Under the pieces are notes generated by a model. It did no database searches and was not told where the DNA came from. It saw nothing but the letters and a program-made list of their open reading frames with translations. DNA of 64,000 nt from an uncultured Amphritea sp. (GTDB lineage: Bacteria; Pseudomonadota; Gammaproteobacteria; Pseudomonadales; Balneatricaceae): NCBI GenBank assembly GCA_965140695.1, contig OZ223297.1:2218325-2282324 (forward strand), given 5' to 3'. The translations under genes were made by a program, and so were the position numbers. Shown piece by piece: positions 4,552-61,043 of the stretch (the first letter of the stretch is position 1; the number at the start of each line of letters is the position of its first letter).

Positions 4552-4929
4552 CTCGTTCCCACGCTCCTGCGTGGGAATGCATATGCCAGGCAAGCTTTAG
4601 ATAACTTAGCTTTTAAATCTCGTTCCCACGCTCCTGCGTGGGAATGCATATGTCAGGCACACTTTGGATAACCTGGCTTTTTATAAAAAACACATAAAAT
4701 GATCAGGGTTATCCCTTCTGGCGGGAAGGCGTTCATCGATAGCTGACTCAAAGTGAGGATATGATGCGGCAAAAGATTATGCCGTAACAGCTGAATTCCT
4801 GAAGGTTTGCCGAGCGTGGTAATAAGGTAGGCATTCCCACGCAGGAGCGTGGGAACGAGTCGAATTCCTGAAGGTTTGTCGAGCGTGGTAATTAAGGTAT
4901 GCATTCCCACGCGGGAGCGTGGGAACGAG
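4552..4929. repeat. REP cluster, 4 copies: 4552-4583 and 4619-4650 (+), 4828-4859 and 4898-4929 (-)
   Basis: CTCGTTCCCACGCTCC(T/C)GCGTGGGAATGCATA palindromic unit; the same unit flanks the RAYT gene at 55.4-55.9 kb. Confidence 0.9.
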
Positions 4930-9008: not shown

Positions 9009-10175
9009 ATGTCTGCAAACAGAGTAGTGACAATCAACGATACAACGCTCCGTGACGGTGAGCAGACTGCCGGTGTTGCTTTCAATGCGGATGAAAAAAT
9101 TGCCATAGCGCAGGCGCTGCATCAGGCGGGTGTCCCGGAACTGGAGATTGGTATTCCGGCGATGGGCACCGCTGAATGTGAGGTGATCCGCTCGATTGCT
9201 GCGCTGCCTCAGCGTCCGCAGTTGATGGTCTGGTGTCGGATGTGTGACACCGATATTGCAGCGGCTAAAACGACCGGTGTCGATACCCTCAATCTTTCAA
9301 TCGCGGCGTCAGCACAACAGATTCGTTATAAGCTGGGTAAAACTCCAGAGTGGGTGTTGCAGCAGATCGATTACTACGTAAAAAGCGCGGTTGATCTGGG
9401 CTTCAGCGTCAGTGTTGGCTGTGAAGATTCCTCGCGGGCAGAACCTGATTTTCTGAAGACCATGTTTGAAGTGGCGGCCAACGCCGGTGCTAAACGGGTT
9501 CGCTATGCAGATACGCTGGGGTTGATGGAACCCTTCTCTCTGTTCAGCGTTATCAGCGATCTGCGGGCATCGACCGATCTGGAGATCGAGATGCATGCCC
9601 ATGATGATCTGGGTCTGGCGACCGCTAACTCGATGGCAGCGATCTGTGCCGGGGCCACCCATGTGAATACCACGGTGAATGGTCTGGGCGAACGGGCCGG
9701 TAATGCCGCCCTGGAAGAGGTGGTTATCGGCCTGTCGCAGCTTTATGGCATCGATTGTGGTGTTGACTTCACCCGTCTGCCAGGCCTTTCAACCATGGTT
9801 GAGCAGGCATCCGGACGGCTGGTTCACTGTCAGAAAAGTGTGGTTGGCAGTCATGTCTTTACCCATGAGTCCGGCATTCATACCGATGGCTTGTTAAAAG
9901 ATCAGCGCAACTATCAGGGGCTTGACCCGCTTAAGCTGGGTCGCTCACATCAGTTGGTTTTGGGTAAACATTCCGGGGTTAACACGGTTAAACATGTCTA
10001 TCAGGAGCTGGGAATATCACTCAGCCGGGAACAGGCCGGGATTCTTCTGGCCGAGATCCGTCAGCGGGTCACCCTGAATAAACAAAGTCTCTCTCCGATA
10101 GAACTGATCCGCCTTAGTGAAGAACTTTTACCGGTTGCGGGGGAGATCTATGCACCATCTATTGTGGCACTTTGA
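9009..10175 (+). CDS. nifV: Homocitrate synthase
   Basis: INDTTLRDGEQTAGVAF, EMHAHDDLGLATAN, GLGERAGNA and HESGIH motifs; nif context. Confidence 0.93.
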   Translation: MSANRVVTINDTTLRDGEQTAGVAFNADEKIAIAQALHQAGVPELEIGIPAMGTAECEVIRSIAALPQRPQLMVWCRMCDTDIAAAKTTGVDTLNLSIAASAQQIRYKLGKTPEWVLQQIDYYVKSAVDLGFSVSVGCEDSSRAEPDFLKTMFEVAANAGAKRVRYADTLGLMEPFSLFSVISDLRASTDLEIEMHAHDDLGLATANSMAAICAGATHVNTTVNGLGERAGNAALEEVVIGLSQLYGIDCGVDFTRLPGLSTMVEQASGRLVHCQKSVVGSHVFTHESGIHTDGLLKDQRNYQGLDPLKLGRSHQLVLGKHSGVNTVKHVYQELGISLSREQAGILLAEIRQRVTLNKQSLSPIELIRLSEELLPVAGEIYAPSIVAL

Positions 10176-34214: not shown

Positions 34215-35087
34215 CTACTCTCGCGCTTTGTGCGAGCCCAAAGCCAAAACCTTATCAATATCGTCGGCGGAGTGACGTTCGCGCAGTTTTTCCCACGCCT
34301 CCCCCGAGGACTTGTTAACGATGCGGCCACGTTTGACGCCTTCGCGTTGTTCCAGCATCTGTGCCCATCGTAGAACGTGACTGTAGCTTTCAACCTGCAG
34401 AAACTCTGCTGCATCATATAAACGCCCCAGAACCAGGTTGCCATACCAGGGCCAGATGGCGATATCCGCGATGCTGTATTCATCGCCTGCCACATAGGGA
34501 TGTTTTGCCAGCTGTTTATCTAACACGTCCAGCTGGCGCTTAGTTTCCATGGCATAGCGATTGATGGGGTATTCCTGTTTTTCATCAGCATAGGCGTAGA
34601 AATGACCAAAGCCGCCACCGAGAAAGGGAGCAGAACCCTGGGCCCAGAACAACCAGTTGAATACCTCTGTCCGGCTGGGGCCGCTTTGTGGCAGGAACTG
34701 ATCAAACTTCTCAGCTAAATGAACCAGAATCGATGCCGATTCGAAGACATTAACATCCTCTTCCCCCGATCTGTCGACCAGTGCGGGAATCTTGGAGTTT
34801 GGATTGACGCCGACAAACCCGGACGAAAACTGTTCCGACTTGCCAATATTAATCAGATAGGCATCGTATTCAGCCTCTTTAATGCCAAGCAACAGCAGCT
34901 CTTCGAGCATAATCGTGACTTTCTGACCATTGGGGGTGGCAAGTGAGTAAAGCTGTAACGCGTGATTACCCGCCGGCAGGTCCTGTTCGTAGCGTGCGCC
35001 AGATACCGGGCTATTGATGTTCGCCCATTCGTTGCCTCCCGCAGTATCATCTACCCAGACTGCAGGGGGGATGTATTGTTCACTCAT
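34215..35087 (-). CDS. yghU: Glutathione-dependent disulfide-bond oxidoreductase
   Basis: LYSLATPNGQKV, NPNSKIPAL, FESASIL and SIADIAIWPW motifs. Confidence 0.92.
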   Translation of the reverse strand: MSEQYIPPAVWVDDTAGGNEWANINSPVSGARYEQDLPAGNHALQLYSLATPNGQKVTIMLEELLLLGIKEAEYDAYLINIGKSEQFSSGFVGVNPNSKIPALVDRSGEEDVNVFESASILVHLAEKFDQFLPQSGPSRTEVFNWLFWAQGSAPFLGGGFGHFYAYADEKQEYPINRYAMETKRQLDVLDKQLAKHPYVAGDEYSIADIAIWPWYGNLVLGRLYDAAEFLQVESYSHVLRWAQMLEQREGVKRGRIVNKSSGEAWEKLRERHSADDIDKVLALGSHKARE

Positions 35088-35567
35088 AGGGCCTCCTTGA
35101 TCGTGATGTTATTAACGTAGTTGGTGCTGCAGGTGATGTCCGAGTGTGCTTTATCTTAATGAGGAAAACAAATAATACTCTGGATGAAAGGTTCCACTAA
35201 CGGATATTCCGTGTACCCCCGTTGTTGATTCTCTTAGATGATGAGACACGGGCCGGATGGCAGGAGAGAGTGGGGTTGTTTACTCGTTCAACTCTCTGGC
35301 TTCAACTATCCAGTTGCAAACAGGGTTAGCTACTGGAATAAGGGATAAAAGTGGTGCATTATCAGGCTGATAGGGAAATGGCGGGTGACAAAGGGTGCCA
35401 TCACAACATAGCAAAGCGTGCTTGCGTGTATTCAGGGGATGAAACTGGCTTTTTTCAGAATTACTTTTTCAATATCAAATAGATACAGTGTCCTCCATCA
35501 CCGTCTAGCGGTGTCAAAATACGCCAGCACATTATTATAATGTCAGAACAAACAAGGGATAAATATC

Positions 35568-35963
35568 GTGCCAAGAAGGCTAACTCAAACTAAACCCGGG
35601 ACACACCAAGCACTTAAAAACACATCTTACGAAAGCATGGTCGTAAGTTGGCTTATGCAAGATGGTTGGCAAGTGTTTTTACCCATCTTAGATCATGGGC
35701 ATCAGACAGATATCCTTATATCAGATGGGCCTAGCTACTACAGAATCCAAGTCAAAACTGTAGAAGCAAGTGGTGAAGACCACATAGTTCATAATGCCTG
35801 GGAAGGAAGTAATGTAGATGTTGTCATTTTCTTTGCTAGAAATTCCAATTGGGGGGTCATCGCTCCAGCATTTACAGAAAAGAAACGGGCATTGAATCAC
35901 GAAGGTCATCGTAAGTTTACTCAGGACAGAAAAGAGTTCTTACGTGAATTTCATCAACTCTAA
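35568..35963 (+). CDS. Cassette 1: small PD-(D/E)XK nuclease
   Basis: E...TDILI...RIQVKT catalytic pattern; TAA stop lies inside the attC inverse core. Confidence 0.75.
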   Translation: MPRRLTQTKPGTHQALKNTSYESMVVSWLMQDGWQVFLPILDHGHQTDILISDGPSYYRIQVKTVEASGEDHIVHNAWEGSNVDVVIFFARNSNWGVIAPAFTEKKRALNHEGHRKFTQDRKEFLREFHQL

Positions 35964-36007
35964 CAAGAGAAACCACCCGACGCATACTGCGTGGCTGCTT
36001 TAAGCGT

Positions 36008-36740
36008 GTGTGCCGGACTTGGCACTTAACTAGCGAGGTGAAAGTCCTCTTACTAGGTATTCGCAGAATCGAAGGTTAGCCAAAGGGCAAGGTTAGTTCC
36101 GCGAGGGATTGGCTGGGGGAATCTCAAGGCGCAATCGCGGGGCGATGAACAAGAACCGGATATGAGGTGTGACATAAGGGGGGGCTAACAGGCACGTGAC
36201 TGCTAAGCTCTTCATCTGGCTTATGTTATATTGAATTAAAGAATACGGGATTTACTGTCAGTCCCCGATGCGGCAACAGAATCAAAGTGGCCGACAAGGC
36301 GCTGGTGAAGCTAAAGCTGCGGGTACAGGAACTGAGCCGTCGAACGAGAGGCCATCAACTGTTACATGTCATCGCAGACTTAAGGAAATACCTGCTTGGT
36401 TGGAAAGAGTACTTCGGCGTAGCCGAGGTGCAGAGCCCGCTGCGTGACATCGACAAATGGATCAGACGGAAGTTGCGGTGTTATATCTGGAAGCAATGGG
36501 GCCCTAGTGGTTATCGTCAACTGCGCCGATGGGGAGTAGATCTCTGGACGGCTTGGAATACGGCGAAATCGGCTCATGGGCTTTGGCGTTTAAGCAAAAG
36601 TCCTGCACTCTATAGAGCATTGCCAAACATATATTTTAAAGGCTTGTGGCTGTCATCACTGGCAGCGTGATAATAGATGAGGCTGTGGTACGTGACCCGT
36701 ATGCCCGGTAGTGTGGGAGGAGGGGCACCCCTATCCCGAT
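36008..36740 (+). mobile_element. Internally deleted class C group II intron (733 nt)
   Basis: 5' end GTGTGCCGGACTTGGCAC...GGTGAAAGTCC; degenerate DV TGTGGTACGTGACCCGTATGCCCGG; DVI with bulged A ending CCTATCCCGAT; RT domain absent. Confidence 0.85.
36245..36670 (+). pseudogene. ltrA: Remnant of intron-encoded protein: maturase/domain X only
   Basis: GFTV...NRIKVADKAL...LLGWKEYF...DKWIRRKLRCYIWKQWG...AKSAHGLWRLS; no YADD RT core. Confidence 0.85.
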
Positions 36741-36773
36741 TAGATTTCATAAGCGTTTTTCACGGTACTCTTA

Positions 36774-37697
36774 ATGGATGATGAATTAACCAGCGTCTAT
36801 GAACGCATTGATCGAATACTCAACCCACATCGAAGGTGGCAAAAGCGAATAGATCGAATTCTGGAACCTCAGCGTAGGCTTCAGGAGCCGATGGAGAAGT
36901 ATCTTGAACCGCAACGCCGACTTCAGGAGCAGATGGAGAAGTATCTTGAACCGCAACGCCGACTTCAGGAGCAGATGGAGAAGTATCTTGAACCGCAACG
37001 CCGGCTTCAGGAGCAGATGGAAAAGTATCTTGAACCGCAGAGACGGCTTCAAGAGCAACTAAACAAGATACTTGAGCCCCAGCGATTGCTTCACGACCAA
37101 ATCAACAAGTATCTTAATCCATTAAACGATTATCTTTCTAGCCCTCTAATGGATCTCATCGCGATTGGAAGCGATGGCGTAATCTCTGTATCAGAGGAAA
37201 TCGTTGATATCCAGGAGATAAATGACAGCGTTGAAAGCATATCTAAAGATTATTTAAGTGCTGAGGAATTTTTAGAGCAATTATTTCATATCCTGGAAAA
37301 ACTAGGTAACGGTGCGCGCATAGTCGTTATTTATTTAATTTTGCCATATTTTCTGGCAATCATTGCCAATTTAACAACACCAATTTATGAAGAATGGTGG
37401 AAGGAATATGCAGATTACGACCAGCGAGAAGCAAAAAAAGAGATTATTCGTGAAGCACTCGACCTATACAGCATAGAACAATTATTCGAATATCGTTTTG
37501 TTTATGCATCAACACTTAATGTCCGAGAATCTGGGAGTATTAAGTCTAAAATTACTGGCGTGCTGCACCTTGGAAAAGCGGTAAAACTTATTAATAAGGT
37601 GAAAAGCTGGTCCTTTATCGAATATCAAGACTCCTTGACTAACGAGATTAAGCAAGGCTGGGTGTTTTCAAGATATTTACAGAAATTTGAAAAATGA
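36774..37697 (+). CDS. Cassette 2: tandem-repeat protein with C-terminal bacterial SH3-like domain
   Basis: About 7 x 14-aa repeats, a hydrophobic segment (IVVIYLILPYFLAIIANL), then LNVRE...G...W SH3-like motif. Confidence 0.8.
   Translation: MDDELTSVYERIDRILNPHRRWQKRIDRILEPQRRLQEPMEKYLEPQRRLQEQMEKYLEPQRRLQEQMEKYLEPQRRLQEQMEKYLEPQRRLQEQLNKILEPQRLLHDQINKYLNPLNDYLSSPLMDLIAIGSDGVISVSEEIVDIQEINDSVESISKDYLSAEEFLEQLFHILEKLGNGARIVVIYLILPYFLAIIANLTTPIYEEWWKEYADYDQREAKKEIIREALDLYSIEQLFEYRFVYASTLNVRESGSIKSKITGVLHLGKAVKLINKVKSWSFIEYQDSLTNEIKQGWVFSRYLQKFEK
36816..37109 (+). repeat. 42-bp in-frame tandem repeat, about 7 units
   Basis: Core unit CTTGAACCGCAACGCCGACTTCAGGAGCAGATGGAGAAGTAT; central copies near-identical. 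Confidence 0.92.
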
Positions 37698-37698
37698 A

Positions 37699-37770
37699 AT
37701 CTAACAAGGCGCTCGTTTGGAAGCTAATTACGCTGCTCTTCGTTCGCTCCGCACAGTTTGGTCGTTAAGT
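37699..37770 (+). repeat. attC site 2 (degenerate)
   Basis: ATCTAAC at 37699 directly after the stop; GTTAAGT at 37764; interior AAGGCGCTCG...TACGCTGC...CGCACAG resembles gammaproteobacterial attC. Confidence 0.7.
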
Positions 37771-37778
37771 GAACGCTG

Positions 37779-38084
37779 ATGATGGAAGACTGGCCACAAT
37801 TTATCGGACTGACCTTAGGGTTGCTAATCGCTATCCCGATCGGTATTCATATGTTTCGTGAGTGCTTCAGGAGCTATAACCAGTTCCAGAAAGAGATGAA
37901 GGAGACCGGAGGGAGTGAAGAAAGAAAACTATATGATGGAGAGTTCAAAAAAGCTGTCAATCATCAGTTTATTGAATTCAAAGCCGGTTTTGCGTTGGTT
38001 TTCCCAATCATTATTTTTTTGATTACCTACTTCCTTACGTCCTCAATTGCAGAAACTGCGTTTAATCTTTATCGGGGGTCTTAA
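37779..38084 (+). CDS. Cassette 3: small two-TM membrane protein
   Basis: Two hydrophobic helices; starts 9 nt after the attC2 core. Confidence 0.7.
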   Translation: MMEDWPQFIGLTLGLLIAIPIGIHMFRECFRSYNQFQKEMKETGGSEERKLYDGEFKKAVNHQFIEFKAGFALVFPIIIFLITYFLTSSIAETAFNLYRGS

Positions 38085-38145
38085 ATTGCCGTATGTGCCG
38101 GGAGACACGTAGCAGTAGCGGATCATCGCTACGCTCATACACTGT

Positions 38146-38525
38146 CTCGTTCCCACGCTCCCGCGTGGGAATGCATACCGAACTTTAGCAACCACACTTC
38201 GCACCTTGGCGGTGTAGCACTTTATTCCGGTGTTTATACGCCCGGAAACAGCCAATACTCTGTTCGATGTCCTGCACTTTTTTAAGCAAAGATCTTATAA
38301 GAAGGTGGTTATAAAACTACTGTCACTTTGAGATGATAAGTAAGTCTATGAATTAATTAGTTTTTTATACAAGCCCTATAAGAGTGATCGACTTTATCAA
38401 TTTTTACCGAAAGACGTGTATTCAGTGCTGATCTAAAGTGAGGGTATGATGCGTTAAAACATGACTAATTTACTAAAATCCGCTCAGGCGAGGTATGCAT
38501 TCCCACGCGGGAGCGTGGGAACGAG
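38146..38525. repeat. Inverted REP pair: 38146-38177 (+) and 38494-38525 (-)
   Basis: Same 32-nt REP, enclosing about 316 bp of AT-rich non-coding DNA. Confidence 0.9.
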
Positions 38526-38590
38526 TAAAAATCTCTCCAGATTCTTTTCTCTGTGCCCTCTGTGGTAAAACGCCCTGATCCCTTTAGGAA

Positions 38591-38854
38591 TTAATCATCG
38601 TCGTCATCATCATCGTCGTCAGGAACGCGGATGATTTTGCGATAGATCTCAATCCGGTCGCCCTCCTCAAGAGCAGCGTTCAGCCGTGTGAGTTTGCCGA
38701 AGATACCGATCTTCTGGGTTTTCAGGTTGATCTCCGGGCATTGCTCCAGAATCTGGGATGCTTCGATGGCGGTTTCTACCGTCGCACTGTCATCGATCTC
38801 GATATCGGACCAGAGTTGTTTTTTTTCACCGGCGTAAGCGATTGATACTTTCAT
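38591..38854 (-). CDS. rnfH: RnfH (ubiquitin-like)
   Basis: GIFGKL...LEEGDRIEIYR; acidic tail. Confidence 0.92.
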   Translation of the reverse strand: MKVSIAYAGEKKQLWSDIEIDDSATVETAIEASQILEQCPEINLKTQKIGIFGKLTRLNAALEEGDRIEIYRKIIRVPDDDDDDDDD

Positions 38855-39537
38855 GCAGACTCCTCCTGCAAGTGTCCCTGAATGGCGTTTCTGCGAGCCT
38901 CCAGTTTACGGTCGGTAACCCGTTTACCGGCCAGAATCAGACCCAGACAGATAAAGCCTCCCGGGGGGAGTATCAGTAACAGTGTGCCGCCGTAATCGGG
39001 AAAAATGGTCAGCTCAATAAAGGAGAAGCTTTCTCCCAGCAGTAGTGATGCATCCGCGAACAGGGTGCCACTGCCAAACAGTTCCCGCATGCCGCCCAGC
39101 AGCACCAGCACCCAGGTAAAGCCGATTCCCATTGCCAGTCCATCGATCATTGAGGGACCGACATTGTTTTTTGAGGCAAAACTTTCCACCCGGCCAAGGA
39201 TGGCGCAGTTGGTGACGATCAGGGGAATAAACAGACCCAGTACCTGATAGAGTTCATGCATCCAGGCGTTAAGGAACATATCCACCAGGGTCACCATCGC
39301 GGCGATCAGCAGGATAAAGACCGGTATCCGTACCTGCGGGGTGATAATCCCTCTGATCATCGACACCAGCATGTTCGAAGCGAGCATCACCGCCAGGGTG
39401 GCGATACCCATGCCCAGGCCATTACTGGCGGTGGTGGTGACGGCCATCAGTGGACACAACGCCAGCATCTGCCCGAGTACGACGTTATTGTTCCACAGTC
39501 CGTCAGCCCAGATCTCTGCGTAGGATTGCTGTGTCAT
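38851..39537 (-). CDS. rnfE: Rnf complex subunit E
   Basis: LALCPLMAVT, LIVTNCAILGR and LPPGGF motifs. Confidence 0.93.
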   Translation of the reverse strand: MTQQSYAEIWADGLWNNNVVLGQMLALCPLMAVTTTASNGLGMGIATLAVMLASNMLVSMIRGIITPQVRIPVFILLIAAMVTLVDMFLNAWMHELYQVLGLFIPLIVTNCAILGRVESFASKNNVGPSMIDGLAMGIGFTWVLVLLGGMRELFGSGTLFADASLLLGESFSFIELTIFPDYGGTLLLILPPGGFICLGLILAGKRVTDRKLEARRNAIQGHLQEESA

Positions 39538-40205
39538 TGTGAACTCTCCTGCCCGGATGCAACCGGAGTACTTAGCTTTGACTCGATGTTGGCGCGTTGC
39601 TGGTCGAAATGTATCAGACCGGTTTTCACCGCTTTAACAACCGCTCTGGGGGTAATGGTGGCACCGGTAAACTGGTCAAAATCACCGCCATCTTTTTTTA
39701 CCTGCCATTGAGTTGCCGAGTGGTTTTCCAGCGAATAGCCATTAAAAGAGGTGATCCAGTCGTTCTTTTTAATCTCTATTTTATCCCCCAGCCCGGGGGT
39801 TTCTGCGTGGCTGATGGTACGTACGCCGGTAATTTCGCCTTTCTCATTTATACCCAGAAGCAAGACGATATCGCCGCTATAACCTTTACCGACCACCTCC
39901 ATAGCGAGGCCGGAGAACTGTCCATTCCGGGTTGCAAGATAGGCAACGTCATGGCCAGGAAAGGGACTGTCTTTCAGTGTATAGCGCAACTCCAGCGGAT
40001 TATTGTCGTAAAGATCTGCGGGCAGCACCTGATCCAGCATGACCCGGGTGTCCTCTTCCAGTCGTAAACGGATATCGTCCCGGGTACTCTGATCACCCAT
40101 GATCAGCAGCAGGCTGATGATGGTTGCCATACCGCCGAGCAAACCGGCCTGATAACCGATGCGGTGAGTGAAGCTGGGGATTGCAATCGCTCTGGTGGGC
40201 TTCAT
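39534..40205 (-). CDS. rnfG: Rnf complex subunit G
   Basis: GYSGDI, HAETPGLG and FTGATITP (FMN attachment) motifs. Confidence 0.93.
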   Translation of the reverse strand: MKPTRAIAIPSFTHRIGYQAGLLGGMATIISLLLIMGDQSTRDDIRLRLEEDTRVMLDQVLPADLYDNNPLELRYTLKDSPFPGHDVAYLATRNGQFSGLAMEVVGKGYSGDIVLLLGINEKGEITGVRTISHAETPGLGDKIEIKKNDWITSFNGYSLENHSATQWQVKKDGGDFDQFTGATITPRAVVKAVKTGLIHFDQQRANIESKLSTPVASGQESSQ

Positions 40206-40224
40206 TGTTTACTCCTCTTTATCA

Positions 40225-41298
40225 CTACTCTTTAGCCGCTTTCAGGGGCGCGCCCTTGTAGTCGTAGCCATAGATTCTTGGACGGAAGTAGCGATCGATT
40301 ATCGGTGTCAGTGCATTCATAAACAGCACCGCGAAGCCGATCGCCTCTGGGAAGGAGCCCCAGGTGCGAATGGTGAAGGTGACCAGACCGATACCCATGC
40401 CGTAGATCAGCTGACCTTTGATGTTTGAGGGGGATGTCACCGGATCGGTGGCGATAAAGAAGGCCCCAAACATCAGTGCGCCTGACAAAAGATGATAGAT
40501 CGGTGGGGCGTATCGCTGAGGGTCAATACTGTTAAAGATAAGTGCCATCAGCGCCACTGTCAGTATCAGGGCGACGGGGATATACCACTGAATCACTCTT
40601 TTCCAGATCAGGAAAATGCCGCCAGCCAGCATCAGAAGAGCGGAGGTTTCACCCAGACTACCGCGGGTAAAACCGGTCAGGGCATCGTTAAGACTGAAGA
40701 TCTCTCCGACCGAAACCGTGGCGGGGATAGCGGCGGTCAGCGCTGTTTTGACATGTCCCAGGGCGGTAGCGCCGGTGAGCGCATCGCTCAGGGGCGCTGC
40801 CAGAAAGGTGATCTCCAGGCCTTCAATAAAACCGGGCGCGGCGGCATCCGTTATTGGGATAACATTGGCCCAGGTTGTCATCTCCAGCGGGAACGAGATC
40901 AGCAGTCCAACCCGGGTTAACATGGCGGGATTAAACAGATTTTGTCCCAGTCCTCCGTAGAGATGTTTACCGATGACAATGGCGAACAGCGTGCCGGTAA
41001 CGGCCAGCCACCAGGGGCCCCAGGGAGGGAGAGTCATGGCAATGATCCAGCCGGTTAATATGGCAGAACCATCCAGAGCAAAACTCAGGCGTTTACCTGC
41101 CAGTGACAGACAAAACAGTTCTCCCGCCACAGCTGAGCCGACACAGAGAAACCAGATGTTTATCGCGGGCCAGCCAAACAGATAGAACCCCAGCAATGTC
41201 GCGGGGAGTAGCGCAAAGCAGACCAGATACATTGTCCTTTCGACAGAGCTGCGATCATGCGCATGGGGGGATGAGATCATCATATTACTCACAGTCAT
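40225..41298 (-). CDS. rnfD: Rnf complex subunit D
   Basis: SSPH, GGLGQNLFNPA, TGAT, GSLGETS and ATDPVTSP motifs. Confidence 0.93.
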   Translation of the reverse strand: MTVSNMMISSPHAHDRSSVERTMYLVCFALLPATLLGFYLFGWPAINIWFLCVGSAVAGELFCLSLAGKRLSFALDGSAILTGWIIAMTLPPWGPWWLAVTGTLFAIVIGKHLYGGLGQNLFNPAMLTRVGLLISFPLEMTTWANVIPITDAAAPGFIEGLEITFLAAPLSDALTGATALGHVKTALTAAIPATVSVGEIFSLNDALTGFTRGSLGETSALLMLAGGIFLIWKRVIQWYIPVALILTVALMALIFNSIDPQRYAPPIYHLLSGALMFGAFFIATDPVTSPSNIKGQLIYGMGIGLVTFTIRTWGSFPEAIGFAVLFMNALTPIIDRYFRPRIYGYDYKGAPLKAAKE

Positions 41299-41303
41299 AG
41301 TGC

Positions 41304-42776
41304 TCAGACCTTCTCAATTTGACTTTTAGCTTTCTTGCGGGCTGCTGCTTTCGCTGCCTTTTCCGCTTTAGCAGCGGCTTTCGCTGCGGCCTCTTTTTCC
41401 TGACGTGCCATGCGTGCCTCAGAAAGCGATTTGGTGAGTTCCCCTTTTCTGGCCTGAATCTGATTCTCACGATGCTTGCCTTTGGCAAACTGGAAGTAGT
41501 GCACCAGAGGGATATGAGAGGGGCACACATAGGCGCATGAACCACACAGAATGCAATCTTTCAGGCCGAATTCGTTGGCTCCGTCGTAGTCGTCTGCCCG
41601 GGAGTGGCGAGCCATCTCCAGCGGTAACAGGCCCATGGGGCAAGCCTGAACACAGCTACCGCAGCGAATACAGGGAGAGACATCCGCAGAGTTAATCTCC
41701 TCCTCTGTGAGTGCCAGTATTGCGCTGGCGCCTTTCGTTATCGGCACCCCGGTATTGGGAAGAATCTGGCCCATCATCGGCCCACCCATCAGCATCCGGG
41801 CAGGTGTTGAGGCCAGCCCACCGCTCTGTTCCAGCACCCACTGTACCGGCGTGCCAATCAGTACTTCGACATTCTGAGGTGTTTCAAGAGACTGTCCTGA
41901 AAGTGTTACCACCCGGGATATCAGCGGGCGTGACTGATAGATGGCCTGATGCACCGCAAATGAGGTGGCGACGTTGTGAACCAGCACGCCGATATCGGAA
42001 CTGCGACCGCCGGTCGGCACTTCCTGGCCGGTAATGATTTTGATCAGTTGCTTGGCGGAGCCCATCGGATAACGGGTTGGAATCACGCGGATCTCTACAT
42101 TGTCATACGCCTGGGCGGCATCCTGCATCGCTCTGATCGCTTGAGGTTTGTTGTCTTCTATACCGGCGATAATTTTTTCCGCATTAATCGCTCTCAGGAT
42201 AAGCCGGGCACCACTGATGATCTCGACTGCACGTTCACACATCAGCATATCGTCACAGGTGAGATAAGGCTCACATTCGCTGCCGTTCAGGATCAGGGTA
42301 TGAACATTTTGCCGGGAACCCGCTTTCAGTTTCAGGGCGGCGGGATAGGTGGCGCCACCCAGTCCGACAATACCGGCGCTATCTACCAGATCAGCGATCG
42401 CTTCAGCGCTCAGATGGTCTGGATCAAGCCTGTTTTCCGGGAGATAAGCGGTATCCAGTCCATCGGGTTCAATATGAATCGCATCGTAGCTCAGAAGAGA
42501 GGGGTGGGGGGCCTGAATCTGACCAATACCCAGAACCTTTCCTGATGTTGGCGCATGGATAGAGGCGGAGCGGTCACCGGCGTTGCTACCGATCAGCTCA
42601 CCTTTTAAGACATGCTGGCCCGCTTCAACCACGGGGATGGCCGGTGAACCCGCATGCTGACTGAGCGGAATCGACAGCAGGGGGGGGATGCCCAATACCC
42701 GGATCGGTTTGTCGGTACTCTGCTCTTTACGCTCATCGGCGTGAACGCCGCCCCGGACTTTAAATTTCATCAACAT
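41304..42776 (-). CDS. rnfC: Rnf complex subunit C
   Basis: GIVGLGGATYP, NGSECEPY, CIRCGSCVQACP and CILCGSCAYVCP motifs. Confidence 0.94.
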   Translation of the reverse strand: MLMKFKVRGGVHADERKEQSTDKPIRVLGIPPLLSIPLSQHAGSPAIPVVEAGQHVLKGELIGSNAGDRSASIHAPTSGKVLGIGQIQAPHPSLLSYDAIHIEPDGLDTAYLPENRLDPDHLSAEAIADLVDSAGIVGLGGATYPAALKLKAGSRQNVHTLILNGSECEPYLTCDDMLMCERAVEIISGARLILRAINAEKIIAGIEDNKPQAIRAMQDAAQAYDNVEIRVIPTRYPMGSAKQLIKIITGQEVPTGGRSSDIGVLVHNVATSFAVHQAIYQSRPLISRVVTLSGQSLETPQNVEVLIGTPVQWVLEQSGGLASTPARMLMGGPMMGQILPNTGVPITKGASAILALTEEEINSADVSPCIRCGSCVQACPMGLLPLEMARHSRADDYDGANEFGLKDCILCGSCAYVCPSHIPLVHYFQFAKGKHRENQIQARKGELTKSLSEARMARQEKEAAAKAAAKAEKAAKAAARKKAKSQIEKV

Positions 42777-42780
42777 CGTT

Positions 42781-43305
42781 TTATACCACGGCAGGTTTAG
42801 GCCAGTGCCAGTTACTCAGCGTTTCCTCTTCCTGATGCAGTGATATGCAGTCTTCAGGGCAGGCAGTAACGCATTTTCCGCAGCCGGTACAGGCTTCCTT
42901 AAATACGTAATGAAGCTGCTTATTAGCACCCACGATGGCATCGGTAGGACAAACTCTGAAGCAACGGCAGCAACCTGTGCAGAGAGATTCCTGAACAGAA
43001 GCGGTCAGGGGGACTGAAGAAAGGTCGCTCAGATCCGCAGTGACACCCAGCTTCGCGGCAAGGCTTTTGGCCAGTACCTGTCCACCGGGAGGGCAGCAGG
43101 TGACTTCCGCTTCACCATTGACCATCGCTTCTGCTGCACCACCGCAGCCCGTAAATCCACACTGGCCACAGTGTGTGCCGGGCAACATGGATTCGACATC
43201 TTTAATAAGCGGGTCTTCCTCGACGGCAAACACCTTGTCGGCATAACCCAGAATAAAACCCAGTATTAATCCCAGGGAGGTCAGTACTGCGATAGTCAGA
43301 AACAT
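42781..43305 (-). CDS. rnfB: Rnf complex subunit B
   Basis: LPGTHCGQCGFTGC plus two ferredoxin motifs. Confidence 0.93.
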   Translation of the reverse strand: MFLTIAVLTSLGLILGFILGYADKVFAVEEDPLIKDVESMLPGTHCGQCGFTGCGGAAEAMVNGEAEVTCCPPGGQVLAKSLAAKLGVTADLSDLSSVPLTASVQESLCTGCCRCFRVCPTDAIVGANKQLHYVFKEACTGCGKCVTACPEDCISLHQEEETLSNWHWPKPAVV

Positions 43306-43383
43306 AATATTTACCCTTCTAAGCTATGGTTAAAAACGACGATTCTCATTGCGTTAATCGCTGTCAGTTCAGGGGTGGCGGGT

Positions 43384-43959
43384 TTATACCAAGCCGCCAA
43401 ACCCCATAAAAATCATTGAAAGAATGCCCGCGGTGACTAATGCAACCGGGGTGCCTGCAAACGTTGCCGGGACTTCCGACAACGCCAGACGTTCCCGCAG
43501 TCCGGCAAACATAATCAGCACCAGTGAGAAACCGATGGAGGCGCCGATGCCGTAGGTCATGCTCTCGATAAAGCTGAACCCTTCACTGATATTGATCAGC
43601 GCGACACCCAGTACGGCACAGTTGGTGGTGATCAGTGGCAGGAATATGCCCAGCGTCCGGTGTAACAGAGGACTGCTCTTTTTGATCATCATTTCGGTGA
43701 ACTGGACGACCGCGGCGACTACCAGAATGAAACAGATGATTCTCAGGAACTGAAGGTTGAGGGGTTCAAGCACATAGTGTTCGATTAGCCAGCCGGACAT
43801 ACATGACAGTGTCAGGACAAACGTTGTGGCAACTCCCATACCGGTTGCGGTGCTGAATTTATTGGATACACCCATCAGAGGACATAGCCCCAGAAACTTC
43901 ACCAGGACAACGTTGTTTACCAGTACCGTACCGATCAGCAGTGTGATTAATTCCATCAT
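43384..43959 (-). CDS. rnfA: Rnf complex subunit A
   Basis: FLGLCP and [12 protein letters not shown] motifs. Confidence 0.94.
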
Positions 43960-55266: not shown

Positions 55267-56189
55267 CTCGTTCCCACGCTCCCGCGTGGAAATGCAGATC
55301 TGGTTATCAGGTTTGATACACTTTTTGAGCTCGTTCCCACGCTCCTGCGTGGGAACGTATACCTTGCTACCATGCCCGACAAATTTCTAATAATCCAGCA
55401 GCACCAGCGTAATCTTTTGCGCTGGAGTAACGCCAATGCTCGGCTTCATCCACATAACCTCGCTTTACCAGATTCTGGTGAATATATTCGATCTTTTGTA
55501 GCATCATATCCTCACTTAGAATCAGCTCTGGATGTACGCCTTCCTGCCAGAATTGATAAGCCCGGTCAGTTTTATGGGCTTTTTTATAAAAAGCCAGTTG
55601 ATCCAGAATTTGCCTGATATTGCGTTCTGCGAGATATTGAATCAGTTGTTTCGCTGTCCATGACTTGAGTCGTGCTATGTCATGATCCAGTGCATTGCTT
55701 TGCAGAACAAGGTGACAGTGGTTTTCTAAAATCACCCAGGCATAAACTTTGAGGCCATCTTTGCTTAAAAAGCGCAGGGCATCGAGAAGAACATTGACGG
55801 TGTCAGGGCGTGTGAACACCGGAATCCAGTGCAACACCGTCAGGGTGACGAAGTGTAGTTGCTGAGGTTCGGTTATTTTGTAACGGCTTCGACCCATTAT
55901 GCATGTTCCTTATGCATTCCCACGCGGGAGCATGGGAACGAGACAACGAGAAATCTGTATCCCTGGTCAGGCGGGTGACTGTTCAGTAGTCTATTGATCA
56001 TTACACAGATCGACATAACTGAAAAGTTAAGAGTAGGGCTGTTCTGTGTACTTAAAGCTCTGCAAGGAAGGATGAAAAAAAGAGCTCTTTCTATCACTCG
56101 TTCCCACGCTCCCGCGTGGGAATGGGCTCTCGTAGGGGGTGCAGGTGAACAGCAGGGCTCGTTCCCACGCTCCCGCGTGGGAATGCATA
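55267..56189. mobile_element. REPtron: RAYT gene with 5 REPs (55267, 55330, 56097, 56158 on +; 55911-55942 on -)
   Basis: REP copies on both sides of the transposase. Confidence 0.88.
55367..55897 (-). CDS. REP-associated tyrosine transposase (RAYT, Y1 HUH family)
   Basis: HFVTLT, VILENHCHLVL (HUH), FWQEG.H, IEYIHQNLV (catalytic Tyr) and HWRYSSA motifs. Confidence 0.9.
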   Translation of the reverse strand: MGRSRYKITEPQQLHFVTLTVLHWIPVFTRPDTVNVLLDALRFLSKDGLKVYAWVILENHCHLVLQSNALDHDIARLKSWTAKQLIQYLAERNIRQILDQLAFYKKAHKTDRAYQFWQEGVHPELILSEDMMLQKIEYIHQNLVKRGYVDEAEHWRYSSAKDYAGAAGLLEICRAW

Positions 56190-59147: not shown

Positions 59148-61043
59148 GTGAGTATGTTACACCCTATGGACAGGGCTCGGTTATGTAGTGGCAGCGATCT
59201 GACTGCCGAAAAACTTCCCTATGTTCTCCGACCACAGAATGCTCTGAATACTGCCCAACGAATGTGGGCCAATGAGTTTGAACGCTCCAGACTTGTTCGT
59301 TTTGACCCTGTATCCCGGCATACCCGCCACAACAGACGCTTGCCTTTCCCTTCTTCCTTGCAAAACGCTATCCGTACCGGCCAGTTGATACTGCTGCTGG
59401 ATGATGCCCGCATGATTACGGCACCGGTTGTCAGTCAGCGAAATGGTGAGCTGCAAACATCCGGGTTAGAACGGGAATCACTGATGTTTCGCACCACCAT
59501 CGAACGGGCGATGAAACGCAGTAGTTTCAGCAGTGGCCGCGTAGGTCGCGCAGATATAATCCCAGAAGTTCCGATGAGTTTTGCCGATAGCATCGACGTC
59601 AACAACAGATATCTGCTGGGCGAAGACAAGCAAGCCAAAGAGAAGCAGTACTGCGTAGACCTTCAGTGTGTCTGGGATAATGGCGAGTCAGTAGGAGAGA
59701 TTCCGCTGCTACTAACGTTTGATACTGGAGAAGTGCAGCGACATATACTGCCAGCCAATGGTCATCTGGTCGTAGAGGGGGCACCCTCCGCCAGTTATAA
59801 AGCACAGCTCAAACCTGATGAGGATGACACATCAGCACTTCGTATCTCGATTCAGGAAACCTTAGCTGCCATCATTGAGAAAGAAAAAGCCGAAGCGGCA
59901 ATGCATCAGTCATTGCAAGATCAGATGGATGTTGTTGACAATGTTGTGGTGCATACCGGTGCTGTGATGTGGGGTGTGTGGAGCTGGGCAAAAGATACGG
60001 TCGAAGCACTTAATGCTACGGCCAGACTAGTCACACCCGCTGGGAACTTAAGCAGAGCATTGCAAGCATCCTATGCTGCCAGCCAGGCCGGACCTGAATC
60101 CACATGGCAGGAAACGTTTCTTAAAAGCTATAGTGACCAGCAACACGAAGATTTTCTAAAAGCCTTAGGTTTTGATCCTTTACAAATTACTAAAGCACAG
60201 CTGGCAGAAGCTTATGAAATAGCCAATTTCGTGTATGAGGATGCCCCTACGCGAGCAGCTCTGACCAAGTTTTCAGAAGACTACGTTAAAGCTCAGGATA
60301 GTGTTGAGCTTGCCGAGTCGCTGGCTCCTGCGGTATTAGATATCATTCTGACGGTTGTACTGACAGCGACAACCGCCGTTGGAGGGACTGTTATTGTTGC
60401 CAGGGCGGGTCAATCGCTTTTCAGACAACTGGGTAGATTATTAGTCAGTCTTGGTAAGGCGTTGAAAAAGTCTGAACTTTCAAAACGCATCGTCAGCAAG
60501 CTGAGTAACAAGCCTGAGAGATTCGAAATACGGCGTCCCCAAGCCCAGAAATTGTCAGAGCCTAAGCGGGTTGAGGGGAATGGTAATAATGGTACGATGG
60601 GAGGGCAGAGTGTTGTTCCAGGTACTGAGCTACTGAGGGTAAAACCGGGTACCTTAAGAGGTGAGCCTGAATTGCCTCATCCAAACGCGAATGCTGATAT
60701 GGTGCGTTCTCTAAATAGGCAAAATGAATCAGCAGAAATTTTGTCGAATCGAGGATTTGATGTAACGCATTTACCGAATACGGGACGGAAAGGAGGTAAC
60801 CCTGATTTAGATATCAATGGGAGGGCAGCAGATGTGTATTCTCCGAAGTCTAAAAACCCGAATACTATTAGGGATAATATGATTCATAAGGTTGAGCACC
60901 AAGCACCTGACATAGTTTTGAATATTACTGATTCTCCTTTGTCTGTAGAAGACATGTTGAGGTTTTTAGATCAAAAGCCGGTGAGCGGTTTACAAAACCT
61001 ATATCTGATTGATGGTGAAAACGTTTTGTTGAGGAAGTTTTAA
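59148..61043 (+). CDS. Putative polymorphic toxin with C-terminal CdiA-CT-like PD-(D/E)XK nuclease
   Basis: C-terminus RQNESAEIL...NPDLDINGRAADVYSP...HQA..IVLN; hydrophobic DIILTVVLTATTAVGG; FIX-like segment near aa 170-225. Confidence 0.7.
   Translation: MSMLHPMDRARLCSGSDLTAEKLPYVLRPQNALNTAQRMWANEFERSRLVRFDPVSRHTRHNRRLPFPSSLQNAIRTGQLILLLDDARMITAPVVSQRNGELQTSGLERESLMFRTTIERAMKRSSFSSGRVGRADIIPEVPMSFADSIDVNNRYLLGEDKQAKEKQYCVDLQCVWDNGESVGEIPLLLTFDTGEVQRHILPANGHLVVEGAPSASYKAQLKPDEDDTSALRISIQETLAAIIEKEKAEAAMHQSLQDQMDVVDNVVVHTGAVMWGVWSWAKDTVEALNATARLVTPAGNLSRALQASYAASQAGPESTWQETFLKSYSDQQHEDFLKALGFDPLQITKAQLAEAYEIANFVYEDAPTRAALTKFSEDYVKAQDSVELAESLAPAVLDIILTVVLTATTAVGGTVIVARAGQSLFRQLGRLLVSLGKALKKSELSKRIVSKLSNKPERFEIRRPQAQKLSEPKRVEGNGNNGTMGGQSVVPGTELLRVKPGTLRGEPELPHPNANADMVRSLNRQNESAEILSNRGFDVTHLPNTGRKGGNPDLDINGRAADVYSPKSKNPNTIRDNMIHKVEHQAPDIVLNITDSPLSVEDMLRFLDQKPVSGLQNLYLIDGENVLLRKF

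What the first reader, a model, noticed from the sequence alone, without database searches (positions are those of the whole stretch)
35501..38145. Integrase-less integron cassette array (CALIN) lodged inside a nitrogen-fixation region
Seen: three co-oriented, visibly AT-richer ORFs, each starting shortly after a GTTRRRY-like core (GTCAGAA 35542, GT|TAGAT, GTTAAGT 37764) and ending at or next to a matching inverse core (CTCTAAC, ATCTAAC, degenerate TCTTAAA at 38079). I see no intI upstream between 35087 and 35500. The array sits between the nifF/yghU block and the rnf operon. Inference: a decaying integron fragment was captured between nif modules. 35501-35548 (ending ACATTATTATAATGTCAGAA) may be a relic attI.
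Basis: partly seen in the sequence, partly recalled or inferred. Interest (0 to 1): 0.7.

Follow-up and report, generated by a model that had tools for sequence, protein, structure and literature searches.

The report
Decayed integron cassette array with intron
A 3-kb strain-variable block between a glutathione-transferase gene and the rnf/nif genes of an Amphritea-like marine bacterium is a small, integrase-less and largely disabled integron cassette array, whose first recombination site is split by the remnant of a group II intron of a lineage also found in clinical resistance integrons; this is a known kind of element.

Summary

- ORF1 (35568-35963) and ORF2 (36774-37697) are genuine cassettes. 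Their homologues sit in arrays with canonical attC sites elsewhere. Nucleotide homology starts and stops at the G|TTRRRY and RYYYAAC cores.
It splits attC1 at GT|TAGAT, the same point where full-length relatives split aadA1 and aacA4 attC sites on plasmids pR148 and pPp47.
- With the intron removed, attC1 is a 55-nt hairpin and the best attC-profile hit in the window (E 0.0014).
- attC2 (37699-37770) is second best (E 0.07; covariance model 13 bits, E about 1). It has lost its stem, so it is a decayed copy of an attC family also seen on other contigs of the same samples.
- ORF3 has no attC, and the 'relic attI' is unsupported.
- No intI lies in the 64 kb.
- The whole block 35189-38144 is one allele. 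An Amphritea MAG and a co-occurring strain carry about 1.06 kb of different content between the same junctions.

The result is ordinary in kind and modestly interesting in detail.

The parts
35189..38144 (+). The variable block (allele A), 2956 nt, replaced as a unit in relatives.
   Evidence: Homology with the Amphritea MAG L007 stops at 35188 and resumes at 38558. In samples X1 and X2 a second contig follows 35188 with L007-like sequence and ends in the REP at 38145.
35189..35533 (.). Leader of unknown origin. It is not part of the ORF1 cassette.
   Evidence: No ORF of note, no Rfam hit, no attC hit and no IntI remnant. It is conserved next to ORF1 in a roughly 93%-identical organism in run X3.
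35511..35538 (+). Sigma-70-like site (GTGTCA-16-TATTAT) just upstream of the first cassette; a possible promoter.
   Evidence: It is a consensus match only; such sites are not enriched in the region (2 found against 6.2 expected).
35534..35548 (+). 5' junction of cassette 1: a relic R' core, GTCAGAA (GTT changed to GTC).
   Evidence: Nucleotide homology with the ORF1 cassette of array L097 starts here. It aligns with L097's AATCGTTAGAGCAAT.
35568..35963 (+). ORF1, cassette 1 cargo: a 131-aa protein with a PD-(D/E)XK nuclease fold (like Hjc and I-Ssp6803I).
   Evidence: 561 homologues at 70-89% identity, patchily spread over Gammaproteobacteria and Verrucomicrobia. It is a cassette in the array L096-L098. 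AlphaFold pLDDT is 80; best PDB matches are Hjc (1gef) and I-Ssp6803I (2ost), with TM about 0.5.
35958..36007 (+). attC1, 5' part: R'' CTCTAAC (overlapping the stop codon), the stem, and the first two letters (GT) of R'.
   Evidence: Joined to 36741-36745 it gives a 55-nt single hairpin on the bottom strand (-13.2 kcal/mol) with a TCTAAC/GTTAGA R box. The nhmmer attC profile gives E 0.0014.
36008..36740 (+). Group II intron remnant (GUGUG...GAU), in the same orientation as the cassettes. It lacks the RT region and about half of the 5' ribozyme.
   Evidence: Rfam RF02001 hit at 36095-36270, 45 bits. The ORF at 36287-36670 carries a GIIM domain only. It is 72-82% identical to the 1840-nt introns of pPp47 and pR148, with a roughly 1.1-kb internal deletion. 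The insertion point is the same as in those plasmids.
36741..36745 (+). attC1, 3' part (TAGAT of R'), which is also the first bases of cassette 2.
   Evidence: Homology with the ORF2 cassettes of L092 and L093 begins exactly at GTTAGATTT.
36774..37697 (+). ORF2, cassette 2 cargo: 307 aa with six 14-aa tandem repeats (DNA 36860-37115), a hydrophobic stretch that looks like a membrane helix, and a C-terminal SH3_3 domain.
   Evidence: Pfam SH3_3; tandem repeats. The homologue in Vibrio navarrensis L093 is flanked by canonical attC sites. It is 78% identical at nucleotide level to the Corallincola copy over 36740-37710.
37699..37770 (+). attC2: a decayed attC. R'' ATCTAAC and R' GTTAAGT are intact, but the stem is lost.
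   Evidence: It is the best covariance-model hit in the window, but only 13.2 bits, E about 1. nhmmer gives E 0.07. Folding energy is -2.9 kcal/mol, equal to the background median. Positions 37701-37756 are about 86% identical to attC-like sites on other contigs of X1 and X2.
37779..38084 (+). ORF3: a 101-aa protein with two hydrophobic stretches that look like membrane helices. Its cassette status is unproven.
   Evidence: Homologues occur only in Amphritea and Neptuniibacter, at other loci; only the coding sequence is conserved. No attC lies downstream.
38102..38148 (.). Hairpin at the right end of the block; not attC-like.
   Evidence: z about -2.2. No R box and no model hit.
38150..38521 (.). 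Inverted pair of REP elements (38150-38171 and 38500-38521). They belong to the host genome's repeat family, not to the array.
   Evidence: 12 REP loci in the window against 0 expected. A variant lacking 38178-38490 exists in X1 and X2.

Best explanation
The block 35189-38144 is a small, degenerate cluster of integron gene cassettes without an integrase (a CALIN). It lies in the intergenic gap between a yghU-type GST gene and rnfH in an Amphritea-like diazotroph.

Shown:
- Cassette 1 is ORF1 plus attC1, and cassette 2 is ORF2 plus attC2. Both were made and moved by an integron integrase at some time, because the same units occur in real arrays elsewhere with the same core-site boundaries.
- A group II intron of a lineage that reverse-splices into the top strand of attC sites at GT|TRRRY entered attC1. 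The same lineage sits in the aadA1 and aacA4 attC sites of class 1 integrons on pR148 and pPp47.
- That intron later lost about 1.1 kb, comprising the reverse-transcriptase region and part of the ribozyme.

Inferred:
- The remnant can neither move nor splice by itself. It keeps the two halves of attC1 733 nt apart.
- attC2 has lost its stem. Neither site should therefore fold into the hairpin that IntI needs, so the cassettes are frozen in place.
- ORF3 is either a last cassette whose attC is gone or an unrelated small gene.
- If expressed, the three co-oriented genes are read from a promoter in the 345-nt leader.
- The block spreads or is replaced as a whole by homologous recombination in the conserved flanks, which would explain the alternative allele at the same junctions.
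For: Cassette 1:
- Nucleotide homology with the array L097 spans window 35534-35965. It runs from the R' core to the R'' core, which overlaps the stop codon.

Cassette 2:
- Homology with Corallincola L092 spans 36740-37710.
- A three-way alignment with the Vibrio navarrensis cassette starts at GTTAGATTT and ends after TGAAATCTAACAA.
- The V. navarrensis copy is followed by a canonical 60-nt attC.

attC1:
- After intron excision it is a 55-nt single hairpin at -13.2 kcal/mol.
- Only about 3 non-attC loci in 1.64 Mb reach this for lengths up to 70 nt.
- It is the top nhmmer hit of the window, E 0.0014.

attC2:
- It is the second nhmmer hit (E 0.07) and the top covariance-model hit (13.2 bits).
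- It carries one of only two strict core pairs in 64 kb.
- There are no profile hits at 8.8 bits or more outside integron-bearing loci in 1.72 Mb.
- About 86%-identical attC-like paralogues lie on other contigs of X1 and X2.

Intron:
-.
- The junctions are identical: ...AAGCGT|GTGTG...CCCGAT|TAGAT.

Other:
- No IntI in the window.
- Two alleles share the same junctions.
Against: - attC2 does not fold (z +1.7) and scores far below real attC sites in the covariance model (13 bits against 18-53).
- The split attC1 is not detected by the covariance model, and the restored site could not be given to that tool.
- The bulges of attC1 are not the textbook extrahelical G and T.
- ORF3 lacks any attC.
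- The 5' core reads GTC, not GTT.
- The origin of the 345-nt leader is unknown.
- No empty site and no intI of this genome were seen, so how the array arrived is not shown.
- Allele B (L007-like) has no detectable attC. The locus as such is therefore not proven to be an integron landing site.
Confidence: 0.8

Rival explanations
1. The block is an ordinary strain-specific islet of unrelated accessory genes, brought in by homologous or illegitimate recombination. The core-like heptamers are chance, and there is no integron history.
For: - No integrase.
- attC2 does not fold.
- ORF3 and the leader have no integron features.
- ORF1 and ORF2 homologues also occur outside arrays: next to SIR2 in Vibrio mangrovi, in a prophage-like region in V. 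europaeus, and between metabolic operons in Corallincola and Thiomicrorhabdus.
Against: - Homology with cassettes in real arrays begins and ends exactly at the core sites.
- The restored attC1 is a significant profile hit and a proper hairpin.
- An attC-specific intron lineage sits at its usual target position.
- The profile has no false positive at these scores in about 1.5 Mb.
Confidence: 0.05
2. The array is a detached piece of the host's own large chromosomal integron, moved by rearrangement, rather than cassettes inserted one by one at a secondary (attG-like) site by an integrase acting in trans.
For: - attC2-like sequences (about 86% identity over 43-56 nt) with proper RYYYAAC/GTTRRRY ends lie on other contigs of the same samples. 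This suggests a resident attC family.
- Homology with L097 extends 8-9 nt upstream of the first core into what would be the preceding attC.
- The block behaves as one unit.
Against: - Those other contigs have very different depths (52x and 866x against 18x), so they may belong to other replicons or organisms.
- The 345-nt leader is not attC-like.
- The rest of the genome was not available.
Confidence: 0.45
3. The hairpin after ORF1 is merely its intrinsic terminator, and a class C intron inserted behind it as class C introns generally do. No attC is involved.
For: - The inner stem CCACCCGACGCA-TAC-TGCGTGGCTG followed by TTT looks like a terminator.
- Group IIC introns are known to insert after palindromes (PMC3001079).
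Against: - The exons rejoin to give a perfect TCTAAC/GTTAGA R box around that stem.
- The insertion point is letter-for-letter that of the relatives in the aadA1 and aacA4 attC sites.
- The 3' exon is the conserved start of the ORF2 cassette.
- The ORF1 homologue in L097 is followed by an attC that starts with the same CTCTAAC.
Confidence: 0.07

Closest known systems
CALIN (cluster of attC sites lacking an integron-integrase), as defined for IntegronFinder. The term is used in PMC7923331; the definition given here is from my own knowledge.
   Same: It has co-oriented small cassettes with attC sites, no intI nearby, AT-richer cargo of unknown function, and signs of decay.
   Different: Only two attC sites are present. 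One is split by an intron remnant, so a standard scan would miss it, and the other has lost its stem. A default run might therefore call nothing here.
Group II introns inside the aadA1 attC of pR148 (Aeromonas hydrophila) and the aacA4 attC of pPp47 (Proteus penneri).
   Same: They share 72-82% nucleotide identity, the same 5' GTGTG and 3' CCCGAT ends, the same insertion point (GCGT|TAGAT in the R' core of the top strand), and the same orientation as the cassettes.
   Different: The plasmid copies are 1838-1840 nt long with an intact ltrA. The window copy is 733 nt, lacks the RT region and about 210 nt of the 5' ribozyme, and has a 12-nt deletion in domain VI. It is chromosomal, in a marine diazotroph.
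[quoted passage not shown] 2012, as described in PMC7923331).
   Same: [quoted passage not shown]
   Different: The paper is not held, and no sequence relationship was tested here.
Group IIC-attC introns such as S.ma.I2 (PMC3001079).
   Same: Both are group II introns that use an attC hairpin as target and split a cassette gene from or within its attC.
   Different: IIC-attC introns enter the bottom strand at R'' (TTGT/T) and lie opposite to cassette transcription. This one lies in the top strand at R', co-oriented with the cassettes.
Fused gene cassettes formed by partial loss of an attC (PMC4670013, PMC8876359).
   Same: ORF2 and ORF3 are joined by an attC that keeps its ends but not its structure, so they can no longer be separated by IntI.
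   Different: Whether ORF3 was ever a cassette is not shown.

Membership tests
CALIN / integron cassette array | attC site 1: RYYYAAC...GTTRRRY cores pairing as an R box around an imperfect single hairpin (bottom strand). | tested here: met
   After removing 36008-36740, the site is 55 nt at -13.2 kcal/mol, with an R box of 6/7 pairs, an unpaired spacer and a bulged stem. nhmmer gives E 0.0014, the best hit in the window. The extrahelical-base pattern is not textbook.
CALIN / integron cassette array | A second attC site within a few kb. | tested here: inconclusive
   37699-37770 has strict cores. It is the top covariance-model hit, but at 13.2 bits and E about 1. nhmmer gives E 0.07 with no false positives at that score in calibration. 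There is no stem: -2.9 kcal/mol, equal to the background median.
CALIN / integron cassette array | Units of one ORF plus attC that occur as units in other arrays, with boundaries at G|TT. | tested here: met
   ORF1 matches the array L096-L098. ORF2 matches V. navarrensis L093 and Corallincola L092. Homology limits fall at the cores.
CALIN / integron cassette array | No integron integrase nearby. | tested here: met
   tblastn with a real IntI (from L001) against the whole window gives a best E of 0.96.
CALIN / integron cassette array | The third cassette (ORF3) is followed by an attC. | tested here: not met
   There is no covariance-model or HMM hit after 38084. TCTTAAA lacks the AAC, and the following hairpin has no R box.
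Complete integron | intI gene with its IntI-specific segment, attI and a Pc promoter next to the first cassette. | tested here: not met
   There is no intI. 35189-35533 has no recognisable feature except one sigma-70-like match. attI has no general sequence model, so 'relic attI' is not testable.
Group II intron | Ribozyme domains, with 5' GUGYG and 3' AY ends. | tested here: met
   RF02001 (D1-D4) scores 45 bits, E 6e-6. The ends GUGUG...GAU align with full-length relatives. Rfam's domain V/VI family gave no hit, and about half of the 5' ribozyme is deleted.
Group II intron | Intron-encoded protein with reverse-transcriptase and maturase domains. | tested here: not met
   Only the maturase (GIIM) part remains, in a 127-aa ORF. 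About 296 codons are deleted relative to pPp47 ltrA.
Group IIC-attC introns (S.ma.I2 type) | Insertion in the bottom strand of attC at R'' (TTGT/T), opposite to the cassettes. | tested here: not met
   It is inserted in the top strand at R' (GCGT/TAGAT), co-oriented with the cassettes. The definition is taken from PMC3001079 and PMC7923331.
Group IIC-attC introns (S.ma.I2 type) | The IEP falls in the monophyletic IIC-attC clade. | not tested
   No phylogeny was made, and the RT domain is missing here.
PD-(D/E)XK nucleases (ORF1) | Restriction-endonuclease-like fold with an acidic/lysine catalytic motif. | tested here: inconclusive
   The fold matches Hjc and I-Ssp6803I at TM about 0.5, E 2e-3. 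Pfam PDDEXK_5 is below threshold. Invariant residues are E22, D42, D48, D53, Q61 and K63, so the motif reads D...QxK rather than (D/E)xK.

The most novel reading that the evidence does not exclude
The yghU-rnfH gap of these Oceanospirillaceae may be a recurrent landing pad. Cassette genes and group II introns would arrive there together without a local integrase. Both alleles carry a different intron remnant next to different small genes. The top-strand attC-targeting intron lineage known from clinical class 1 integrons would then have its natural reservoir in marine bacteria. It might take part in fixing or moving cassettes, in the sense of the intron-based cassette-formation idea. This reading is not excluded, but nothing here shows it.
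Probability: 0.1. Interest if true: 0.6.

Novelty: new member of a known kind. Interest (0 to 1): 0.35.

Why it matters
- It shows how a chromosomal cassette array dies. One attC is split by an intron that has itself decayed, and another has eroded. Standard integron finders would probably miss the array for these reasons.
- It places a relative of the attC-invading introns of clinical resistance plasmids in an environmental nitrogen-fixing bacterium.
- It marks a strain-variable hotspot right next to the rnf/nif genes.
- None of this changes what is known about integrons.

Tried and rejected
- Folding 37695-37775, 38075-38150 and 35500-35550 as attC or attI gave no attC-like hairpin.
- Rfam at E up to 5 over 35000-39000 found only the intron D1-D4 hit and no domain V/VI hit.
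- An exact-protein look-up of the GST and of P0130 found nothing on record.
- My first regex-plus-energy attC filter missed the long attC sites of L001. Its sensitivity is low, so it serves only as a specificity check.
- RNAalifold found no consensus on the attC alignment, so I supplied a hand-derived structure.
- I first read the X1 joint 35188->38145 as an empty site. One search showed it is the two ends of a 1129-nt contig that carries the alternative L007-like allele. No empty site was found.
- The L007 element after the GFA gene (ACATAAC...ATTATGT) looked attC-like by eye, but it does not fold and gets no model hit.
- PADLOC gave no defence-system assignment for the three ORFs, only coiled-coil noise.
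- RNA-seq runs hold too little of the region to test expression.
- The paper PMC3256610 is not held.
- I did not test whether the plasmid introns are the published Kl.pn.I3.
Full report
**What is at the coordinates**

The three + strand ORFs are 35568-35963 (131 aa), 36774-37697 (307 aa) and 37779-38084 (101 aa). The ORFs have GC 0.35-0.43, against 0.50-0.58 in the flanks.

- To the left lie ClpP, a flavodoxin and a YghU-type GST (34215-35087, - strand).
- To the right lie rnfH to rnfA (38591-43959, - strand), nifL, nifA, nifB, nifQ and, at the end of the window, nifH.
- The closest genome found is an uncultured Amphritea MAG (L007). Its GST is 95% identical in protein and its rnf operon 84% identical in DNA.

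Between ORF1 and ORF2 lies a degenerate group II intron.

- Rfam's D1-D4 family RF02001 hits 36095-36270 (45 bits, E 6e-6).
- The ORF at 36287-36670 is only the maturase (GIIM) part of an intron protein.
- A blastn search of plasmids found full-length relatives (72-82% identity), annotated ltrA, inside class 1 integron arrays. One is in pR148 (blaOXA-10, aadA1, intron, qacEdelta1-sul1). The other is in pPp47 (blaIMP-4, qacG2, aacA4, intron).
- The junction sequences are:
  - pR148: ...CTCAAGCGT|GTGTGTCGGG...CCCGAT|TAGATGCAC
  - pPp47: ...GTCAAACGT|GTGTGCCGGG...CCCGAT|TAGATGC
  - window: ...CTTTAAGCGT|GTGTGCCGGA...CCCGAT|TAGATTTC
- The intron remnant is therefore 36008-36740. It sits at GT|TAGAT in the R' core, in the same orientation as the cassettes, exactly like its plasmid relatives.
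- Against the 1840-nt pPp47 copy, the window keeps the first 211 nt and the last 507 nt or so. It lacks about 1.1 kb, comprising the rest of D1-D3 and roughly 296 ltrA codons, plus 12 nt of domain VI.
- Published IIC-attC introns enter the bottom strand at R'' (TTGT/T) and lie opposite to the cassettes (PMC3001079, PMC7923331). Top-strand, co-oriented cases are described as unusual (E. cloacae, cited in PMC7923331).
- Depth spikes and contigs of 1.4-1.9 kb in runs X1 and X3 show that full-length copies of this intron exist in the same samples.

**attC1**

- With the intron removed, the exons give CTCTAACAAGAGAAACCACCCGACGCATACTGCGTGGCTGCTTTAAGCGTTAGAT.
- Its bottom strand folds as one hairpin, with a TCTAAC/GTTAGA R box, an unpaired spacer and a bulged stem (-13.2 to -13.9 kcal/mol).
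- In 1.64 Mb of fetched loci, only seven strand-hits (five sites) of 70 nt or less reach this energy. Two of those sites are genuine attC sites.
- It closely resembles a 55-nt attC of a Parashewanella array (L035 16646-16700).
- A sequence profile (nhmmer) built from 23 genuine attC sites ranks it first in the intron-excised window (E 0.0014).
- In 1.72 Mb of loci, that profile hits at 8.8 bits or more only in integron-bearing loci (39 hits, none elsewhere).

**attC2 (37699-37770)**

- It has strict cores, one of only two strict pairs in 64 kb.
- It spans exactly the gap from the ORF2 stop codon to 8 nt before the ORF3 start.
- It does not fold: MFE -5.4 kcal/mol with z +1.7 unconstrained, and -2.9 kcal/mol with the R box enforced, which is the background median.
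- My covariance model (23 attC sites, 15 pairs) makes it the best hit of the window, but at 13.2 bits and E about 1.
- Training sites score 30-53 bits. Independent genuine sites score 18-33 bits: L081 next to an IntI gene, L030, and the blaIMP-4 attC.
- nhmmer ranks it second in the window (E 0.07).
- Positions 37701-37756 match two other contigs of run X1 and one of X2 at about 86% identity. Each match is preceded by an ORF end with RYYYAAC and followed by ...AGCTTAACGTTAGGG or ...CTTTAACGTTATGT.
- The window copy reads TTTGGTC where a paralogue reads CTTTAAC, which removes the AAGCT/AGCTT pairing.
- I read attC2 as a decayed member of a real attC family.

**The cargo genes are cassettes**

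ORF1:
- It has 561 homologues at 70-89% identity scattered over Gammaproteobacteria and Verrucomicrobia.
- In the metagenomic array L096-L098 it is one of more than 12 co-oriented small genes separated by canonical attC sites.
- Nucleotide homology runs from window 35534 to 35965. It goes from L097's R' (AATCGTTAGAGCAAT, against window ATAATGTCAGAACAAA) to the CTCTAAC that overlaps the stop codon.

ORF2:
- It has 80 homologues in Corallincola, Vibrio, Aeromonas, Photobacterium, Woeseia and others.
- In V. navarrensis (L093) it lies between a canonical upstream attC ending GCGTTAGAT and a canonical 60-nt downstream attC.
- A three-way alignment shows similarity starting at GTTAGATTT and ending after TGAAATCTAACAA.
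- blastn against Corallincola spans 36740-37710.
- Elsewhere both genes also occur outside arrays. They are not a fixed operon.

ORF3:
- It has ten homologues, in Amphritea and Neptuniibacter only, at other loci.
- Only the coding sequence is conserved, and no attC follows it.

**No integrase; the block is an allele**

- tblastn with the IntI of a real integron (L001, Marinobacterium) finds nothing in the window (best E 0.96).
- Homology with L007 ends at 35188 and resumes near 38558.
- In the same orientation, L007 carries a mini group II intron remnant with a canonical domain V, a GFA-family gene, a 63-aa membrane protein, a partial duplicate of the rnfH 3' end, a REP and an IS110 transposase.
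- In runs X1 and X2 the assembly forks at 35188. One contig is identical to the window (depth about 15). The other (1129 nt, depth about 20) continues with L007-like sequence and ends in the REP at 38145.
- Two alleles thus share the junctions 35188|35189 and 38144|38145. No empty site was seen.
- Allele B has no detectable attC.

**How it most likely works**

The cassettes were assembled by integron recombination elsewhere. The array, or a piece of a larger one, came to lie in this gap. The intron retrohomed into attC1 and then decayed, and attC2 eroded.

These last points are inference:
- With attC1 split by 733 nt and attC2 unstructured, IntI can probably no longer excise either cassette.
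- The array is now a fixed three-gene accessory module. It may be transcribed from the leader; a sigma-70-like site lies at 35511-35538.
- The module is exchanged as a whole through its conserved flanks.

**Cargo functions**

- ORF1 has a PD-(D/E)XK nuclease fold. The model has pLDDT 80, and the best PDB matches are Hjc and I-Ssp6803I.
- ORF2 has six 14-aa repeats, a hydrophobic stretch that looks like a membrane helix, and an SH3b domain.
- ORF3 is a small protein with two hydrophobic stretches that look like membrane helices.
- None matches a known defence system.

**Verdict**

It is incomplete because the intron was missed, and over-extended for the third attC and the relic attI. The element is a new member of a known kind.

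Noticed in passing
window 59148-61043 (+): A 631-aa ORF with a C-terminal CdiA_C toxin domain lies among the nif genes. L007 holds an 85%-identical stretch (L007 17058-18586).
   Followed up: no
window 4556-4925, 38150-38521, 55271-56183, 58929: A 22-nt palindromic REP family (TTCCCACGCTCCCGCGTGGGAA) occurs at 12 loci in clusters, against 0 expected by chance. Runs X1 and X2 contain a variant lacking 38178-38490 between two inverted REPs.
   Followed up: partly
L007 7257-8840: In the sister MAG an IS110-family transposase sits just after rnfH. It is accompanied by a partial duplicate of the rnfH 3' end (L007 8711-8840 against window 38671-38529).
   Followed up: no
L007 about 9640-9790 (- strand): A roughly 170-nt mini group II intron remnant with a canonical domain V (GAGCCGGATGCGGTAATTCCGCACGTCCGGATC) lies upstream of a GFA-family gene. 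It belongs to a different intron lineage from the one in the window.
   Followed up: partly
L001 3276-4233: The integron of Marinobacterium stanieri has a frameshifted intI. Its ORF1 homologue lies on the far side of intI, directly after an acetyltransferase gene and not in the array.
   Followed up: partly
window 36860-37115: ORF2 holds a 42-nt tandem repeat (about 6 copies, 85-94% alike). Most homologues are 335 aa against 307 aa here, so the repeat number probably varies.
   Followed up: no
window 35568-35963 and proteins P0001-P0120: The ORF1 family is unusually conserved (70-89% identity, 45 invariant residues) across distant phyla for a protein of unknown function. Its motif is D...QxK in a PD-(D/E)XK fold.
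   Followed up: partly
runs X1 and X2, contigs matching window 37702-37744: An attC2-like site sits on a 7.7-kb contig at about 866x depth in X1 (396x in X2), far above the host's 18-30x. It may be a high-copy plasmid or an abundant other organism carrying related cassettes.
   Followed up: no
L091 8001-12000 (Neptuniibacter sp. QD37_6): The ORF3 homologue there is followed by a run of co-oriented small ORFs (45-232 aa, one an ABM domain) that looks array-like. Neither attC model hits it.
   Followed up: partly
L081 870-3248 (Endozoicomonas sp. ISHI1): An IntI homologue (45% identical to L001 IntI) has two attC hits beside it, near a yghU-type GST gene. It served as an independent positive control.
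   Followed up: partly
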